NCBI GenBank assembly: GCA_951406725.2
Contig: OX597834.1
Coordinates: forward strand, 10,974,001-11,038,000
Source of the DNA: Octopus vulgaris
Lineage: Eukaryota
DNA length: 64,000 nucleotides
Direction of reading: 5' to 3'
The position numbers and the translations under genes are program-made. The notes under the pieces are model-generated. The model ran no database searches. It was not told the origin of the DNA and worked only from the letters and a program-made list of their open reading frames with translations. Shown here piece by piece: positions 15,322-57,337 of this stretch. Every line of letters starts with the position of its first letter. Position 1 is the stretch's first letter.

Positions 15322-15512
15322 AATTTAATCCAATCAAGAAAGCACAAAAAAACACAACAACGCGAGGACGTGGAACAAATATAGTATTATTGGAAGCTCA
15401 GGAAAGAAGGAGGGTTTAACGTTTCGGGCAGAGCTCTTCGTCGGAAACATAGGAGAAGGAAAGATCCCGAGAAGGGAAGACAGAGGAAACAAAATCGCCA
15501 ACGGTACACACG
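15322..15512 (-). mobile_element. Penelope-like short unit, family P1, hammerhead motif at 15414-15448
   Basis: Minus strand GTTT-CCGACGA-A-GAGC-TCT-GCCC-GAAACGT-T-AAAC; flanked by TA repeats; homologous to the 29.7, 53.9 and 57.2 kb copies. Confidence 0.75.
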
Positions 15513-16347
15513 ATATATATATAAACAAATGATATTTTTTACCTTTTCTCTTATGTGTAACTTTAGATTACTAACGTAATAATGCTAGAAGGATCTGCAC
15601 TCAAAGTGCAGCTGCAGTATTTGGTGTCCATATTAATTTGTTAAAACGTTGTGTCTTTAGATTGTTGACGACACTGAGGTAAATGTTTTGACAATGACAA
15701 TAAATATAGTCGCAGATTCAATGCAGCAGGAGACAGATGAAACGCCTATACGTGCTCATTGAACTAGCTAGAAATAATAGCCAAATTTGGCTCATCTCTA
15801 AAACCTGCCCCGTTTAAGATAAGGAAAAAAGACCCGATGAATAATGGTCTCTGGAAAATTTATCACTGAATAATAAAGCGACAGCCAATGGTAAACGCTG
15901 ATATGCATTTTTTCCAAGGTTTGCTAAATTAGAGATGATCAGGGTTAGAAAAATAGAAGAGAAGGGGCGGCCGGAGTTGTGGGTGTTCCTTCGTGTGTTC
16001 CGTTACTACATGAGTTAACGATGAGATGAGCCTGCTTAATACGGCAGTTTATTCCTTGTGAAATCGCGTCATAATTCTTTAGAAAACAGCGCATTTAATA
16101 GATACAGTTTTGAAATTAAGATGGTTTGTTCAAGGCATGAAAGGCCATGGCCATAAATCTTCTCAGACTGACGTATCTTCGCCTAAGCAGTAATAATTAG
16201 AACGTAATTCGAATGAATAATATGCAATAAATAATTATTGTGATAGCTACAGCAATGAATACCATACCGAATTCAATACATGACGGGTTAAGTAATGTTA
16301 CTCTGTCTTCTGATATTAAATACATCTGTGTTGTACCAAATAAGTAC

Positions 16348-16585
16348 CTATTTCTTTACTAGCCACAAGGGGCGGCTAAACACACAGAGAACAAACAAGG
16401 ACAGACACACGGATTAAGTCGATTATATCGACCCCAGTGCGTAACTGGTACTTATTTAATCGACCCCGAAAGGATGAAAGGCAAGGTCAACCTCGGCGGA
16501 ATTTGAACTCAGAACGTAACGGCAAATGAAATACGGCTACGCATTTCGCCCGGCGTGCTAACGTTTCTGCCAACTCGCCGCCTTT
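16348..16585 (-). mobile_element. SINE family B monomer with 14-bp TSD
   Basis: TACCAAATAAGTAC at 16334-16347 and 16587-16600. Confidence 0.92.
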
Positions 16586-16603
16586 CTACCAAATAAGTAC
16601 CAA

Positions 16604-16928
16604 AGGCGTAGGAGTGGCTGTGTGGTAAGCAGCTTGCTAACCAACCACATAGTTTCGGGTTCAGTCCCACTGCGTGGCATCTTGGGCAAGTGTCTTCTAC
16701 TATAGCCTCGGGTCGACCAAAGCCTTGTGAGTGGATTTTGTAGACGGAAACTGAAAGAAGCCCGTCGTATATATGTATATATGTGTATATGTGTGTATAT
16801 GTTTGTATGTCTGTGTTTGTCCCCCCAACATCGCTTGACAACCGGTGCTGGTGTGTTTATGTCCCCGTAACCTAGCAGTTCGGCAAAAGAGACAGATAGA
16901 ATAAGTACTGGGCTTACAAAGAATAAGT
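16604..16928 (+). mobile_element. SINE family A, 3' end cut by the foldback element
   Basis: AGGCGTAGGAGTGGCTGTGTGG head, box B GGTTCAGTCC. Confidence 0.9.
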
Positions 16929-17800
16929 TTTTGTGGATCTGTTTTCGGCATTTTTGGCCATTTTCTGTTTTGGCGACTTCAAGCTATGAAGTCGTCGTTC
17001 TAAAAGAAGACTGGTCTCCTTGACAACGCTTTACGACGTCGATTTCCTTACACTGCCTTCCCCACAGGTTCACGAGGGAGGGAAGGAGGGGAGGACCTAC
17101 ACAGGTGCAGGTACGAGCTGGACGCCAACTCCGCCGCCACCGACACACGAAAAAATTGGAAGAAGCCAGACGACAGATTCACAGTCAACTTACGGACAAC
17201 TCGGCCACGGATCTTTTCTTTTTGAACGGCACACACACACACACACACACACACACGCACGCACACACACACACACACACGCACGCACACACACACACAC
17301 GCACACACGCACACGAACACACGCACATGCATACATGCACACACAGACGCACACACACGCACACACGCATGCACACACACACACGCACATGTGTGTGCGT
17401 GTGTGCGTGTGTGCGTATGTGTGTGCATGTATGCATGTGCGTGTGTGCGTGTGTGTGCGTATGTGTGAGTGTGTGTGTGCGTGTGTGCGTGTGCGTGTGT
17501 CGTTCAAAAGGAAAATATCCGTGGCCGAGTTGTCCGTAGTTGATTGTGAAGCTGTCGTCTGGGTTCTCCCAAGTCTTCGTGTGGCGGCGGCGTTGGCGTC
17601 GATGCTCACACCTGCACCTGTGTAACTCCTCCCCTTCTTCCCTCCCTCGTGAAGCTGTGGTGAAGCCAGTGTAAGGAAATCAACGTCGTAAAGCGTTGTC
17701 AAGGAGACCACCGTTCTTTCCAGCGTCGACTTCATGGCTTGAAGACGCCATGCTCAAAACAGAAAATGGCTAAAAAAGCCGAAAACAGATCCACTAAAAC
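16927..17800. mobile_element. ~870-bp imperfect palindrome (foldback/MITE-like) with nested GGATC termini and a (CA)n/(TG)n centre
   Basis: GGATCTGTTTTCGGC at 16935 and GCCGAAAACAGATCC ending 17792; arms alignable throughout; centre CACATGTG near 17389. Confidence 0.85.
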
Positions 17801-17893
17801 GGAGAAACCGCCACACGGGACAGGGTTCCCGTGCAAAGAATTTGTACAACCGAATGAATTAGTTGTTGCACAAATTTTACATACGAAATATTT

Positions 17894-54394: not shown

Positions 54395-54560
54395 TATCTT
54401 GCATTCTCTCTCCGATTTTTTTATTCTCAATATTTCTATTGAGGAGAGCAGGCTCGAAACGTCAAGGACATTTTTATTCTTCTCGAAAGTCAAAGTAATA
54501 CACTTGCTTGTTGTTCCTACACCTGTCTTCATCTTTTGTTTTCCGTAAATTTGAACTATA
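54395..54560 (+). mobile_element. Penelope-like short unit P2, variant hammerhead at 54433-54467
   Basis: CTATTGAGGA-GAGC-AG-GCTC-GAAACGT-C; ends TTGAAC|TATATA; homologous to 63040-63190. Confidence 0.6.
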
Positions 54561-55399
54561 TATACATACATACTTATATATATATATATATATATAAAGG
54601 TTAAAATTAATTAATTAATTAATAATAAATAATTTTAAGAAGTACTTCGGTATGTTAAAAGAACCATTATTGGTAAACCTATGCAAAAATTCTATAACTA
54701 CGAGTATAATTGAAGTGCCGCTGCAATAATTGTGTAAATCCTTCAGGAAATATGTTGAATAAAATCATAATTAACAGATCCACTTGTATTTTCTTTCAGC
54801 AAAAGCCAAGCATTTTTCGAGACCCCACGTGTGTATGTGTGTGTATGTGTGTGTATGTGTGTGTGTGTGTGTGTATCTTCTTTCATTACTTCTATTTGCT
54901 TTAGCCGTGCGGATGCGGCCATCCTGGAGCACTATATTAAACCGAGTTTCATGAATGTTTTTCTATGATATTCTTTTATTTGTAACACTTGAATGCTCGT
55001 ACGTTTTTCATTAGTTGTTAAATCCCTCGTCTGTTATTTATTACGTCTGTATAAAAACTATTTATCCAACGCACAAATATCTTTATGATCTTCTCTGCAG
55101 GTTTTATGTTTTGTTTATACGTACGAATGACTGATGTTATCGACATGTCCCTAGGAGACAATAAAGAGATTATTGTTACAGCGAGATACATTTAAATATC
55201 AAAATGATAAATTGCTCACAGGTTAGAGCATCGGGAAAAAATTATGTCCGATATATTACCGAGCTATAATTTCTGTTTTCAAATCCAACCAAAGATAATA
55301 TCGTTCATTAATGACTACGGTGTGAATAATAGATGTATTACTAAAATCTTGGTTTGATTTAATTTAGAAAACCCATCTAGAATTCGTGGTGATCACCCG

Positions 55400-55505
55400 T
55401 AAAGCGATGTCGACCTCGGCGGAATATGATCTTAGAACGAAAAGAAGGATAAAATACCGCTAGGCATTTCGCCCGGCATACTAGCGATTCTGCTATCTTA
55501 CCGCC
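55400..55505 (-). mobile_element. Diverged SINE B head fragment
   Basis: GTCGACCTCGGCGGAAT...CATTTCGCCCGGC. Confidence 0.7.
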
Positions 55506-55680
55506 TAATAATAATAATAATAATAATAATAATAATAATAATAATAATAATAATAATAATAATAACAATAATAATAATAATAATAATAATAATAATAATA
55601 ACAACAACAACAACAACAACAACAACAACAACAACAATAATAATAATAATAATAATAATAATAATAATCATAATAATAAT

Positions 55681-56130
55681 CAGGGGTTAATGTAAATATT
55701 CTGCTCAATAGCACAGATTTGCTTGTCAATTGCTTGACCTTAACCAGTTGAGCATGTGCCTTAGTGGCTGACGTTATGTGCGGAAGGCGCAGGGGAGCAT
55801 GATAGCCATGTGTTGAGAGGAATTCTTTGGGGTTTGAATAATTCTCTTTTGGAAGTATTGGTGTTTTATTTATCATCCTTAAAAAAGAAATTCTTATTCA
55901 GGGAAATTTTGTACGGGATGGGCTAATCGATGTAACGAAAATTCTAACTGGGCCCCACTTGCAACGTCATACGCTGGTTATATTTATATGAGATTACCAT
56001 ATCACGCATATATGGTTGTGATGCATGTGCCTGGTGTACACTTATCAGATGGGTAGTCATGATGTGTATACCGGGCTTTGTATATTTTATCCCAGTGTTA
56101 CTTTGATGGCATGCACTACTCTTTCATTCG
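55681..56130. mobile_element. (AAT)n-anchored element between long (AAT)n tracts
   Basis: Collinear with 44260-44707; (AAT)n at 55506-55680 and 56133-56226. Confidence 0.8.
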
Positions 56131-57149
56131 AAAATAATAATAATAATAATAATAATAATAATAATAATAATAATAATAATAATAATAATAATAATAATAA
56201 TAATAATAATAATAATAATAATAATAAGAAGAAGAAGAAGAAGAAGAAGAAGAAGAAGAAGAAGAAGAAGAAGAAGAAGAAGAAGAAGAAGAAGAAGAAG
56301 AAGAAGAAGAAGAAGCAAACGGATTGACATAACTCTTCACGAAGGTAAATAGACAACACGAAGAGTGCGGTGCCATTGCAATAAATATTTTATCGGTTTG
56401 AGCGAAATTCTGGCAGCTTGCCTGTCTTTGGCGAGTTCAAAATGGAAAGTGATCCACAGAAATTAAAAATCCTATGAACGCAAATATTTCTGCATTCTCA
56501 CATTGACAGAATGACATTAACATTCTTTAATTACCAATTTTACAACTAGCTAAAAAGGGATGAGAAAAAAGCCAAAAAGAAACAGGATATTTGGACCAAT
56601 TATTTGGTGTAAATATGATGAGATCACCCTTTCACACAATTCATTTCTTCAGAGTATGATGTTAAGAACACACTACCACAATTATCCTCATGCATCTTGA
56701 GGACGTAAAATGTAGTAAATTAAAACGCAGTAAATTAGTAAAATAACTTTGTCGTTATTAACCTGGTGTTTGGAATACAGAGTAGCATGAAAGTTTGAAC
56801 AAAGTTTTTAAGTGATATCACCTTAATACTTTTGATACTATACTCCTGTGGAAATGGACAACCTTTATTTCAATTAAAATTTGAAAATAGTGAAGAATTT
56901 ATTAAAGGGACTTTATCATTGTTAAGCCAGAGTTTGGAACATAAATTAATATCAAATTTTAAAGGGAGATTGTTATTTAGATAAATTCAAAGCAGGAATT
57001 TGCACCACAGGACCAGGTCCAGTTTTAGGGTTAGGGCTTGTACCACACGGGTTAAAAAAGGAAATTTGGTGGATTCTTTCCCAGTATCGTTATGCATGTA
57101 CATATATATATATATATATATAAATTTCAATTTGTGACAACATGTATAT

Positions 57150-57337
57150 AGTTGGCGATTTTCTTTCTCCGTCTTCCATTCCTTGGACCATTGCTTTTTC
57201 TATGTCTCTGACGAAGAGCTCAGCTCGAAACATTAAATCCTCCTTTTTCTTTCCATTCTTGACCGTCCAATTACACTATACTTGTTCTACGTCCTCGCGT
57301 TGTTGTGTTTTCTCTTTGCTCATGTTTGGATTAACTA
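57150..57337 (+). mobile_element. Penelope-like short unit P1, hammerhead motif at 57204-57238
   Basis: CTGACGA-A-GAGC-TCA-GCTC-GAAACAT-T; ends GGATTAAC|(TA)n. Confidence 0.72.

What the first reader, a model, noticed from the sequence alone, without database searches (positions are those of the whole stretch)
15322..57337. Family P1: four ~190-bp hammerhead-bearing mini-elements, all docked on (TA)n
Seen: copies at 15322(-), 29654(+), 53830(+) and 57150(+) share C(C/U)GACGA-A-GAGC-nnn-GCUC-GAAAC(G/A)U-U, a short helix I (GUUU/AAAC-like), essentially no helix III (palindromic ACGU in two copies) and an extra A after the core. They share the terminus TTGGATTAA(C) fused to a TA run and encode no protein. 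Inference: an abundant ribozyme-containing non-autonomous retroelement (solo pseudo-LTR or retrozyme-like) that targets TA microsatellites. Four copies in 64 kb would imply a very high genomic copy number.
Basis: partly seen in the sequence, partly recalled or inferred. Interest (0 to 1): 0.7.

Follow-up and report, generated by a model that had tools for sequence, protein, structure and literature searches.

The report
Ribozyme tail ends of Penelope retrotransposon
The four 190-210-base repeats are real, but they are the cut-off tail ends of a known kind of jumping gene (a Penelope-like retrotransposon) that left tens of thousands of such ends in TA repeats of this animal genome; their self-cutting RNA motif is conserved but predicted to cut only weakly, so the finding is mostly ordinary.

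Summary
The four copies exist (77-92% identical) and end on (TA)n. They are not an independent mini-element. Longer genomic copies continue 5' through a CA-rich 3' UTR into a reverse transcriptase + zinc-linker + GIY-YIG frame, and full-length loci read pLTR-ORF-pLTR. The copies are therefore the terminal pseudo-LTR of a Neptune-type Penelope-like element (PLE) with the published minimal hammerhead. At least 18,490 exact termini exist genome-wide (estimate about 30,000); the window is about sixfold enriched. A young sister family with uninterrupted frames and 6.2-kb tandems keeps the 31-nt hammerhead segment identical while its flanks diverge. Most copies carry a U4C core, and only window copy 2 keeps both helices fully paired. 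Two features go beyond the textbook. 5' ends peak sharply 204-214 nt from the terminus (38 of 47 copies that reach it). Also, 22 of 43 leader-bearing loci are leader-to-pLTR mini-chimeras joined at about that point. Both fit reverse transcription that starts internally at the element's own UAUA and stops or jumps at an RNA 5' end (inferred). This scan reported the same class before, in this genome and others. New member of a known kind.

The parts
15324..15512 (-). Copy 1: 5'-truncated terminal pseudo-LTR of the PLE (about 189 nt), CCGA subfamily; ends ...TTGGATTAAA then TTT and the TA run
   Evidence: 91% identical to the pLTR joined to the element's 5' leader in L287 and L280
15414..15448 (-). 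Minimal type I hammerhead motif of copy 1: U4C core, one mismatch in helix II, ACGU at positions 15/16, GUU triplet
   Evidence: sequence
15278..15321 (.). (TA)22 target tract at the 3' end of copy 1; a short (TA)5 lies at 15513-15523 on its 5' side
29648..29841 (+). Copy 2: 5'-truncated terminal pseudo-LTR (about 194 nt), CCGA subfamily
   Evidence: best other genomic copies 94-97% identical; 95% identical to the leader-linked pLTR of L287
29708..29742 (+). Minimal type I hammerhead of copy 2: helix I GUUU/AAGC, core CCGACGA 29712-29718, extra A 29719, helix II GAGC-UCC-GCUC, GAAAC-GU, predicted cut after U29738
   Evidence: sequence, folds
29842..29919 (.). (TA)n target tract at the 3' end of copy 2
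53813..54017 (+). Copy 3: terminal pseudo-LTR (about 205 nt) starting at the family's modal 5' end, older CUGA subfamily, TA tracts on both sides
   Evidence: 88% identical to the leader-linked pLTR of L273
53884..53918 (+). Minimal hammerhead motif of copy 3: canonical CUGACGA, mismatch in helix II, ACAU (palindrome lost)
   Evidence: sequence
54018..54073 (.). (TA)28 tract at the 3' end of copy 3
57126..57335 (+). Copy 4: terminal pseudo-LTR (about 210 nt) starting at the modal 5' end, older CUGA subfamily, TA tracts on both sides
   Evidence: 87% identical to the leader-linked pLTR of L273
57204..57238 (+). Minimal hammerhead motif of copy 4: canonical CUGACGA, intact helix II, mismatch in helix I, ACAU
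   Evidence: sequence
57336..57359 (.). (TA)12 tract at the 3' end of copy 4

Best explanation
The four repeats are the 5'-truncated terminal pseudo-LTRs of a Penelope-like retrotransposon with a Neptune-type endonuclease linker, likely copied one by one into (TA)n tracts by that element's own reverse transcriptase and GIY-YIG nuclease. Shown: the repeat is the 3' end of a 4.4-kb unit (5' leader, RT-linker-EN frame, CA-rich 3' UTR, pLTR). The element's own sequence just after the pLTR is T(T/A)TATATA-CC, and solo copies end on the same letters running into (TA)n. Inferred: the nuclease nicks (TA)n and the nicked end primes cDNA synthesis at this internal UAUA of the RNA through a few bases of complementarity. 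On a transcript that starts inside the upstream pLTR the enzyme reaches the RNA 5' end after about 205-215 nt, which gives the common solo copy. Earlier drop-off gives shorter copies. A jump onto the 5' leader gives the mini-chimeras. Tandem or circular templates give full-length and more-than-unit copies. The hammerhead is a conserved part of the parent RNA, predicted to cut weakly and only as a dimer or with protein help; in solo copies it is likely a passenger that decays.
For: Upstream extension: 200 exact hits for a 23-mer just 5' of the 190 bp and 42 for a 30-mer about 1.1 kb further up; 28 of the 30 loci fetched from the latter show the repeat downstream within the stretch held. Longer stretches reach an RT (YIDD), a C-x4-C-x2-C linker and a GIY-YIG motif; L110 is pLTR-leader-broken ORF-UTR-pLTR. 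Sister family Y (87-90% protein identity in RT/EN): in 15 of 16 regions the frame lies between two direct pLTRs, with 6.2-kb tandems of 2-3 units; 19 units are 97-99.9% identical and upstream repeats run 267 to >1,966 nt. Pfam RVT_1 and GIY-YIG matches are weak (E 0.001-0.013); 773 homologues, the best 120 mostly with RVT_1 domains and some with GIY-YIG. Internal junction: 50 exact P1 copies continue into the leader. TA docking: 82 of 91 against 7.6%; 27 of 27 terminal Y copies. Two Y copies interrupt the TA tract inside another dispersed repeat, so the tract was there first (L248, L258). 5' ends: 38 of 47 copies that reach 204 nt end by 214 nt; stop rate 0.043 per nt against 0.002-0.005 elsewhere. 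Chimeras: 22 of 43 leader-bearing loci, right-hand joins about 160-265 nt from the terminus, mostly blunt. Published: internal RT initiation and an HHR not needed for insertion in vitro (PMC11167929); internal promoter in the Penelope pLTR (PMC2377424); minimal HHRs mostly in single truncated PLE ends (PMC4209133).
Against: No RNA evidence: no run on record as RNA holds the stretch, so neither the start site nor cleavage was seen. The young family Y shows only a weak peak at the matching position (3 of 30 copies at 209-215 nt) and broad 5' lengths, so the sharp boundary is not general. The 5' peak could also come from an RT stall, or from microhomology of ATGTG/GTGTGTA with TA/TG targets. In the one PLE studied biochemically the RT start site is not homologous to the cut DNA (PMC11167929), unlike the priming proposed here. 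No uninterrupted P1-type frame linked to a P1 pLTR was verified; the intact frames checked belong to Y. Clade placement rests on motifs, not on a tree, and Neptune is paraphyletic (PMC8557442). Two of the 91 sampled copies look like segmental duplicates of others (L190/L191, L216/L217), and all 91 come from the first 16 Mb of one contig.
Confidence: 0.85

Rival explanations
1. The 205-215-nt pLTR became a SINE-like non-autonomous element: solo copies are themselves transcribed from the internal promoter into the genomic (TA)n and are re-copied in trans by the PLE protein.
For: Sharp modal length. Solo copies outnumber leader-bearing ones by several hundred to one (18,490 termini against 50 exact junctions). 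All Penelope sequences needed for somatic transcription lie in the 3' pLTR (PMC2377424, passage). pLTRs alone mobilised an unrelated gene in a rotifer (PMC3846280, passage).
Against: Both subfamilies of short copies (CCGA and CUGA, both tail types) have leader-linked counterparts at 87-95% identity. About half of the sampled copies are shorter with scattered ends, and 8 of 91 are longer than 225 nt. In Poseidon the RNA downstream of the start site was required for insertion (PMC11167929), and solo copies lack it. This rival is compatible with the best explanation as a secondary route.
Confidence: 0.25
2. An independent animal retrozyme: a small unit that self-cleaves, circularises and spreads as arrays through circular RNA.
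For: Type I hammerhead motif, no coding capacity, high copy number. The mini-chimeras (units of 340-620 nt, one of 976 nt; 8 of 22 with two recognisable motifs) have the anatomy of a nascent retrozyme, and one junction recurs at two loci (L287, L310).
Against: No head-to-tail array of the short unit in 90 sampled loci. The motif is the minimal PLE type, not the canonical retrozyme type (PMC7229834, passages). The monomer is predicted to misfold (-7.1 against -3.8 kcal/mol). Longer copies lead into a PLE ORF.
Confidence: 0.04
3. Solo pLTRs are left by recombination between the two direct pLTRs of full-length insertions, as with solo LTRs, and the chimeras are DNA deletions.
For: Full-length loci have direct repeats, and upstream repeats of leader-linked P1 copies are mostly under 220 nt, which would give solos of similar length. 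Recombination was suggested for rotifer solo pLTRs (PMC3846280, passage).
Against: It needs about 30,000 full-length insertions reduced to a few dozen, while young Y insertions are already mostly 5'-truncated on arrival. Upstream repeats are spread over 17-730 nt without the 204-214 peak. Chimera joins are mostly blunt and confined to about 100 nt of a 4.4-kb unit.
Confidence: 0.05

Closest known systems
Neptune-clade EN+ Penelope-like elements (Craig et al. 2021, PMC8557442; passages, Introduction, supplement part 54)
   Same: Single RT + C-terminal GIY-YIG frame, DKG motif (PADKG), CX2-5CxxC linker of the long Neptune type (as Neptune1_Nv in Fig. [quoted passage not shown]
   Different: No tree was built. 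The 1.3-2.9-kb CA-rich 3' UTR, the U4C core and the sharp 5' boundary of solo copies are not described in the text I saw.
[quoted passage not shown]
   Same: Extra nucleotide between A9 and G10.1, G10.1-C11.1 pair, 4-5-bp helix I, palindromic 15.2/16.2 without helix III, mostly single motifs from truncated PLEs, thousands per genome
   Different: Helix II is 4 bp (7-8 bp in Schistosoma). Position 4 is C in most copies and in the young intact family. Copy number is several times the 2,000-9,000 reported there.
Poseidon of Anolis carolinensis (Frangieh et al. 2024, PMC11167929; parts 1-2 of 4)
   Same: Tandem pLTR-ORF units, AT-rich targets, RT starting internally downstream of the pLTR, hammerhead conserved
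   Different: There RT starts in an AC-rich stem-loop not homologous to the target and leaves a 30-40-bp tail. Here the 3' end coincides with the element's own TATATA, which matches the target (priming by complementarity is inferred), and no tail is seen in most copies.
Animal non-LTR retrozymes (Cervera and de la Pena 2020, PMC7229834, passages; Li, Clavereau and Pollet 2026, bioRxiv 10.64898/2026.07.22.740005, parts 1-3 of 5)
   Same: Non-coding, type I hammerhead, derived from PLE pLTRs; Li et al. note that most PLE insertions are 5'-truncated with one terminal repeat
   Different: Retrozymes are tandem arrays of 150-450-bp units with canonical motifs and abundant circular RNA. These are dispersed monomers with a minimal motif. 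The pLTR-leader-pLTR chimeras resemble a first step towards a retrozyme.

Membership tests
EN+ Penelope-like element | One frame with PLE-type RT and GIY-YIG endonuclease linked to the repeat | tested here: met
   (frames broken in P1, uninterrupted in sister family Y; Pfam scores below curated cut-offs)
EN+ Penelope-like element | Pseudo-LTRs from tandem or partial-tandem insertion, variable 5' truncation | tested here: met
EN+ Penelope-like element | CCHH-type EN with two Cys between GIY and YIG; DKG motif | tested here: met
   LIYCIKCNLCGMLYVGQT and PADKG against PMC8557442; the two His of CCHH were not assigned
Neptune clade | C-terminal EN preceded by a long CX2-5CxxC linker | tested here: met
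   CSRSRCNTC plus about 25 residues to the next Cys, like Neptune1_Nv and unlike Nematis, Penelope/Poseidon or Hydra (compared by eye)
Neptune clade | RT phylogeny groups with Neptune | not tested
   no named reference sequences were available as tool inputs; the clade is paraphyletic in PMC8557442
Hydra clade | DKT for DKG, CxCX5C linker, no CCHH | tested here: not met
   DKG, C-x4-C-x2-C and the Cys pair are present
Naiad/Chlamys | N-terminal EN, no canonical HHR | tested here: not met
   EN is C-terminal and an HHR motif is present
Minimal PLE hammerhead | Core C3-G5A6-G8A9, G12A13A14A15.1-U16.1-H17, extra nt after A9, G10.1-C11.1, palindromic 15.2/16.2 | tested here: met
   position 4 is C in 56 of 73 sampled copies and in 8,390 against 4,364 exact genomic matches
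Minimal PLE hammerhead | Helices supported by compensatory changes | tested here: inconclusive
   One compensatory pair in helix I between families P1 and P2 (G-C 39 rows, C-G 18 rows; one event); helix II nearly invariant (72 distinct related rows)
Minimal PLE hammerhead | Self-cleavage as a dimer or with protein help | not testable with these tools
   Monomer predicted to misfold; U4C lowers activity in vitro but is tolerated in a viroid (PMC3088659, passage)
Animal non-LTR retrozyme | Head-to-tail arrays of a short HHR unit | tested here: not met
   0 arrays in 90 sampled loci; 9 loci had a second copy, none adjacent in direct orientation
Animal non-LTR retrozyme | Canonical type I HHR and abundant circular RNA | not testable with these tools
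   The motif is the minimal type (sequence); circular RNA could not be examined

The most novel reading that the evidence does not exclude
This family is a fossil record of how a PLE enzyme works and of how retrozymes are born. RT primes at the element's own internal UAUA on nicked (TA)n, runs off at a transcription start about 210 nt upstream, and often jumps onto the 5' leader, making 340-620-nt pLTR-leader-pLTR units with two hammerheads that can circularise and be copied again. A U4C-attenuated ribozyme fixed in the successful lineages tunes the balance between uncut template (solo copies) and cut or circular template (full-length tandems).
Probability: 0.3. Interest if true: 0.55.

Novelty: new member of a known kind. 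Interest (0 to 1): 0.27.

Why it matters
As a class it is known: minimal hammerheads in truncated PLE ends are published and abundant in animals. The value is in the detail. The role of the PLE hammerhead and the way PLE reverse transcription starts are open questions, with one in vitro study. This family offers about 30,000 fossil products with a sharp length peak, a set of template-jump chimeras, and a young intact sister family with the same variant ribozyme, so the start site, target priming and the effect of U4C can be tested directly. It also warns that short 'SINE-like' repeats in such genomes can be mis-annotated PLE ends.

Tried and rejected
Rfam on the whole window: 227 matches, the 150 shown were almost all microsatellite hits to miRNA models, none a hammerhead; 77 were not shown. 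On copy 2 alone there was no hammerhead match up to E=10. The repeat finder was swamped by microsatellites. Pfam on broken P1 frame pieces: 1 of 8 had a weak GIY-YIG match. Sequencing runs: no RNA holder listed, contigs only; this says nothing on expression, start sites or cleavage. Laying contigs on copy 2 to find an empty site was inconclusive: one run's contig continues into the element, two stop matching at 29648 with nine further letters that were not displayed, and no joint across the element was reported. Summed contig depths were not used as copy numbers. Target-site duplications in 17 Y insertions: shared strings were no longer than in mismatched controls, so none is claimed. Thermodynamic folding gives no support for the active monomer (z-scores -0.8 to +0.3 for copies 1, 2 and 4; the -2.9 of copy 3 is an alternative helix). 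A splice acceptor at the 5' peak was considered and rejected: the majority sequence has no AG there. A transcription start at TCAAAAT is only a resemblance to an initiator (recalled), not tested. A look-up of earlier findings by sequence returned nothing. Literature searches found no description of this family's hammerhead or of leader-to-pLTR chimeras; Repbase and Dfam could not be searched, and the preprint's supplements were not available, so the family may already be catalogued.

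
Full report
1. Observation. The four copies are present. Aligned, they are 77-92% identical, and a profile finds no fifth copy of this family in the window above E=0.02. Each carries CYGACGA-A-[helix II]-GAAAC(G/A)UU and ends in TTGGATTAA followed by a TA run. Only copy 2 keeps helix I and helix II fully paired. Copies 1 and 2 have C at core position 4. Copies 3 and 4 have the canonical U but have lost the ACGU palindrome. The window lies at G000:C21:10974001-11038000 in a 2.8-Gb genome. 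The repeat content looks octopus-like; this is recalled and echoed by earlier scan notes, not established by a call.

2. Copy number. Exact whole-genome counts: 18,490 for a 17-nt terminus pattern and 12,796 for a 22-nt hammerhead pattern; the reversed controls gave 0. In the first 17.4 Mb of C1, 47 of 78 non-Y core matches also had an exact terminus match, which gives about 30,700 termini. This is probably an underestimate, because young copies match both patterns. It predicts 0.7 copies per 64 kb, so the window is about sixfold enriched (Poisson P about 0.006).

3. What the repeat is the end of. The 29 other best genomic matches share further bases 5' of the 190 bp, to variable extents. Walking upstream with two patterns (200 and 42 exact hits) leads through a CA-rich low-complexity region into frames with a YIDD reverse transcriptase, a C-x4-C-x2-C linker and a GIY-YIG nuclease (output partly cut). 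L110 reads pLTR, leader, broken ORF, 3' UTR, pLTR, (TA), with a unit of 4.4 kb. A protein search returned 136 scored matches out of 14,379 candidates, many in long open frames. Sixteen such regions were fetched. They belong to a young sister family, Y: in 15 of 16 the frame lies between two direct pLTRs, three regions are tandems of 2-3 units of 6.2 kb, and three frames run 949 codons from a Met. The 19 units are 97.3-99.9% identical, and upstream repeats are 267 to more than 1,966 nt long, that is more-than-unit copies. Y has 850 exact termini and is 87-90% identical to L110 in RT and EN. The linker matches Neptune and not Nematis, Penelope/Poseidon or Hydra in Fig. S2 of PMC8557442 (by eye); no tree was built. 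Pfam matches are weak. There are 773 homologues, the few named ones from molluscs, a sea urchin and a coral.

4. The 3' end and the target. In the first 90 loci on C1 with an exact terminus (91 copies), 82 have (TA)4 within 16 nt downstream against 7.6% of random positions, and 57 have TA on the 5' side as well. All 27 terminal Y copies among 30 fetched end on (TA)n. Where the pLTR continues into the element, the next letters are TTTATATACC or TATATATACC in P1 (50 exact hits) and ATTATACC in Y. Solo copies begin their flank with the same letters (36 TTTA, 36 TATA, 19 other). The 3' end of an insertion thus falls in the element's own TATA run. Two Y copies sit inside the internal TA tract of another dispersed repeat whose halves flank them (L248, L258), so the tract is a real target. 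Whether RT also lengthens it could not be tested. No target-site duplication could be shown.

5. The 5' end. Mapped to common coordinates, 37 of 91 copies end within 190 nt of the terminus (0.002-0.004 per nt), 46 of the remaining 54 end between 191 and 225 nt (0.043 per nt), and 8 are longer. Of 47 copies that reach 204 nt, 38 end by 214 nt, at the start of TTCAAAATGTGACC. Window copies 3 and 4 start here. Simple random truncation does not give this. Of 43 distinct loci that carry the 5' leader (20 of 50, 30 of 32, 7 shared), 22 join the leader, after about 175-390 nt (one after 750), directly to the last 160-265 nt of the element without a TA tract. Most joins are blunt or overlap by 0-3 nt, and all but one pair differ (L287 and L310 share a junction). 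The right-hand joins centre on the same place as the solo 5' ends. Against generality: Y copies have broad 5' lengths, with only 3 of 30 at the matching position.

6. The hammerhead. It has every hallmark of the minimal PLE motif in PMC4209133. Between P1 (L110) and Y the 31 nt from the 5' strand of helix I to U16.1 are identical, against 57 of 136 upstream, 63 of 109 downstream and 79-82% in the ORF, so the motif is under selection in master lineages. Within P1, non-CpG core positions are 99.6% conserved against 93.3% (median 96.7%) elsewhere; the latter includes subfamily differences. A third family in the same loci (P2, CUGUNGA core) has C-G where P1 has G-C in helix I. That is the only real compensatory change, one event; helix II hardly varies. 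Position 4 is C in 56 of 73 sampled copies; exact genomic counts are 8,390 C against 4,364 U. U-type copies are more diverged (7.3% against 4.6%) and all 16 share a terminal variant, so they are mainly an older subfamily, though CpG decay adds some. The young intact family has C4. U4C lowers cleavage in vitro but is tolerated in a viroid (PMC3088659, passage). As a monomer, an alternative helix AUGUUUC/GAAACGU is favoured over the active-like fold: -7.1 against -3.8 kcal/mol in copy 2 and -0.5 in Y. Cleavage, if any, is predicted to need a dimer or protein help, as shown for Poseidon (PMC11167929).

7. Mechanism. Shown: the repeat is a PLE terminal repeat; it targets (TA)n; its 3' end lies in an internal TATA run; 5' ends peak at 204-214 nt; chimeras join the leader at about that point. 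Inferred: nicking of (TA)n by the GIY-YIG domain; priming at the internal UAUA; run-off at an RNA 5' end inside the upstream pLTR (Penelope has an internal promoter there, PMC2377424, passages); template jumps to the leader; full-length copies from tandem or circular RNA. Rivals are secondary SINE-like spread of solo copies (0.25, compatible with the above), solo formation by recombination (0.05) and an independent retrozyme (0.04).

8. Known or new. The class is published: PMC4209133 (parts 1-2 of 4), PMC8557442 (passages, Introduction, supplement search and part 54), PMC11167929 (parts 1-2 of 4), bioRxiv 10.64898/2026.07.22.740005 (parts 1-3 of 5; supplements not seen), PMC7229834 and PMC3846280 (passages). 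An octopus repeat annotation lists 31 recently active Penelope-like families, and the word 'ribozyme' does not occur in its main text (PMC13282606, passages). Eight searches found no account of this family's motif, the 5' peak or the chimeras; repeat databases could not be searched. Earlier notes of this scan reached the same class in this genome and others; they named Hydra-clade elements as closest, whereas this family has Neptune-type motifs.

9. Verdict. Real, and a new member of a known kind. Interest 0.27. The 5' peak, the chimeras and the fixed U4C core are the parts worth a specialist's time (probability 0.3 that the full novel reading holds, interest 0.55 if so).

Noticed in passing
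window 63020-63189 (+), motif 63064-63106: A copy of a second hammerhead-like family (P2): core CUGUUGA with U in place of A6, GUA triplet, also ending on (TA)n; 22 matches to this family's motif were found in the window and fetched loci.
   Followed up: partly
L131-L150, L241-L270 (for example G000:C10:97806000-97825200): Young sister PLE family Y: 850 exact termini, 6.2-kb head-to-tail tandems, units 97-99.9% identical, uninterrupted RT-EN frames; its helix I has a U-U mismatch and a GUC triplet.
   Followed up: yes
L273, L274, L278, L279, L282, L285, L287, L288, L290, L294, L296, L300, L302, L304-L308, L310, L313, L314, L316: Leader-to-pLTR mini-chimeras of 340-620 nt (one 976), several with two hammerhead motifs; L287 and L310 share a junction at different loci.
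   Followed up: yes
L276, L281, L286, L289, L299: Copies that end about 90-130 nt inside the 5' leader (four seen to run into a TA tract), which suggests a second, rarer RT start region.
   Followed up: no
L098, L104, L006, L039: A third hammerhead family with a canonical CUGAUGA core, a longer helix II (GGCUG/CAGCC) and a 5-bp helix I.
   Followed up: no
L159:1295-1680 and L042: Tail-to-tail pairs of P1 copies sharing one short TA tract.
   Followed up: no
window 18730-19989, 26734-27202, 46934-47294: Tandem arrays (6.8, 2.5 and 2.0 copies) of a 180-184-bp unit that also occurs as dispersed monomers.
   Followed up: no
window 22500-22979, 33385-34262, 42687-43325, 6045-6701: Frame pieces that resemble the ends of LINE reverse transcriptases (by eye, no family search).
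   Followed up: no
window 24155-24196 and 50274-50369: Interstitial telomere-like repeats (TTAGGG)7 and (CCTAAC)16.
   Followed up: no
window 57506-57589: Near-perfect inverted repeat centred on a (TA)15 run, 170 bp downstream of copy 4.
   Followed up: no
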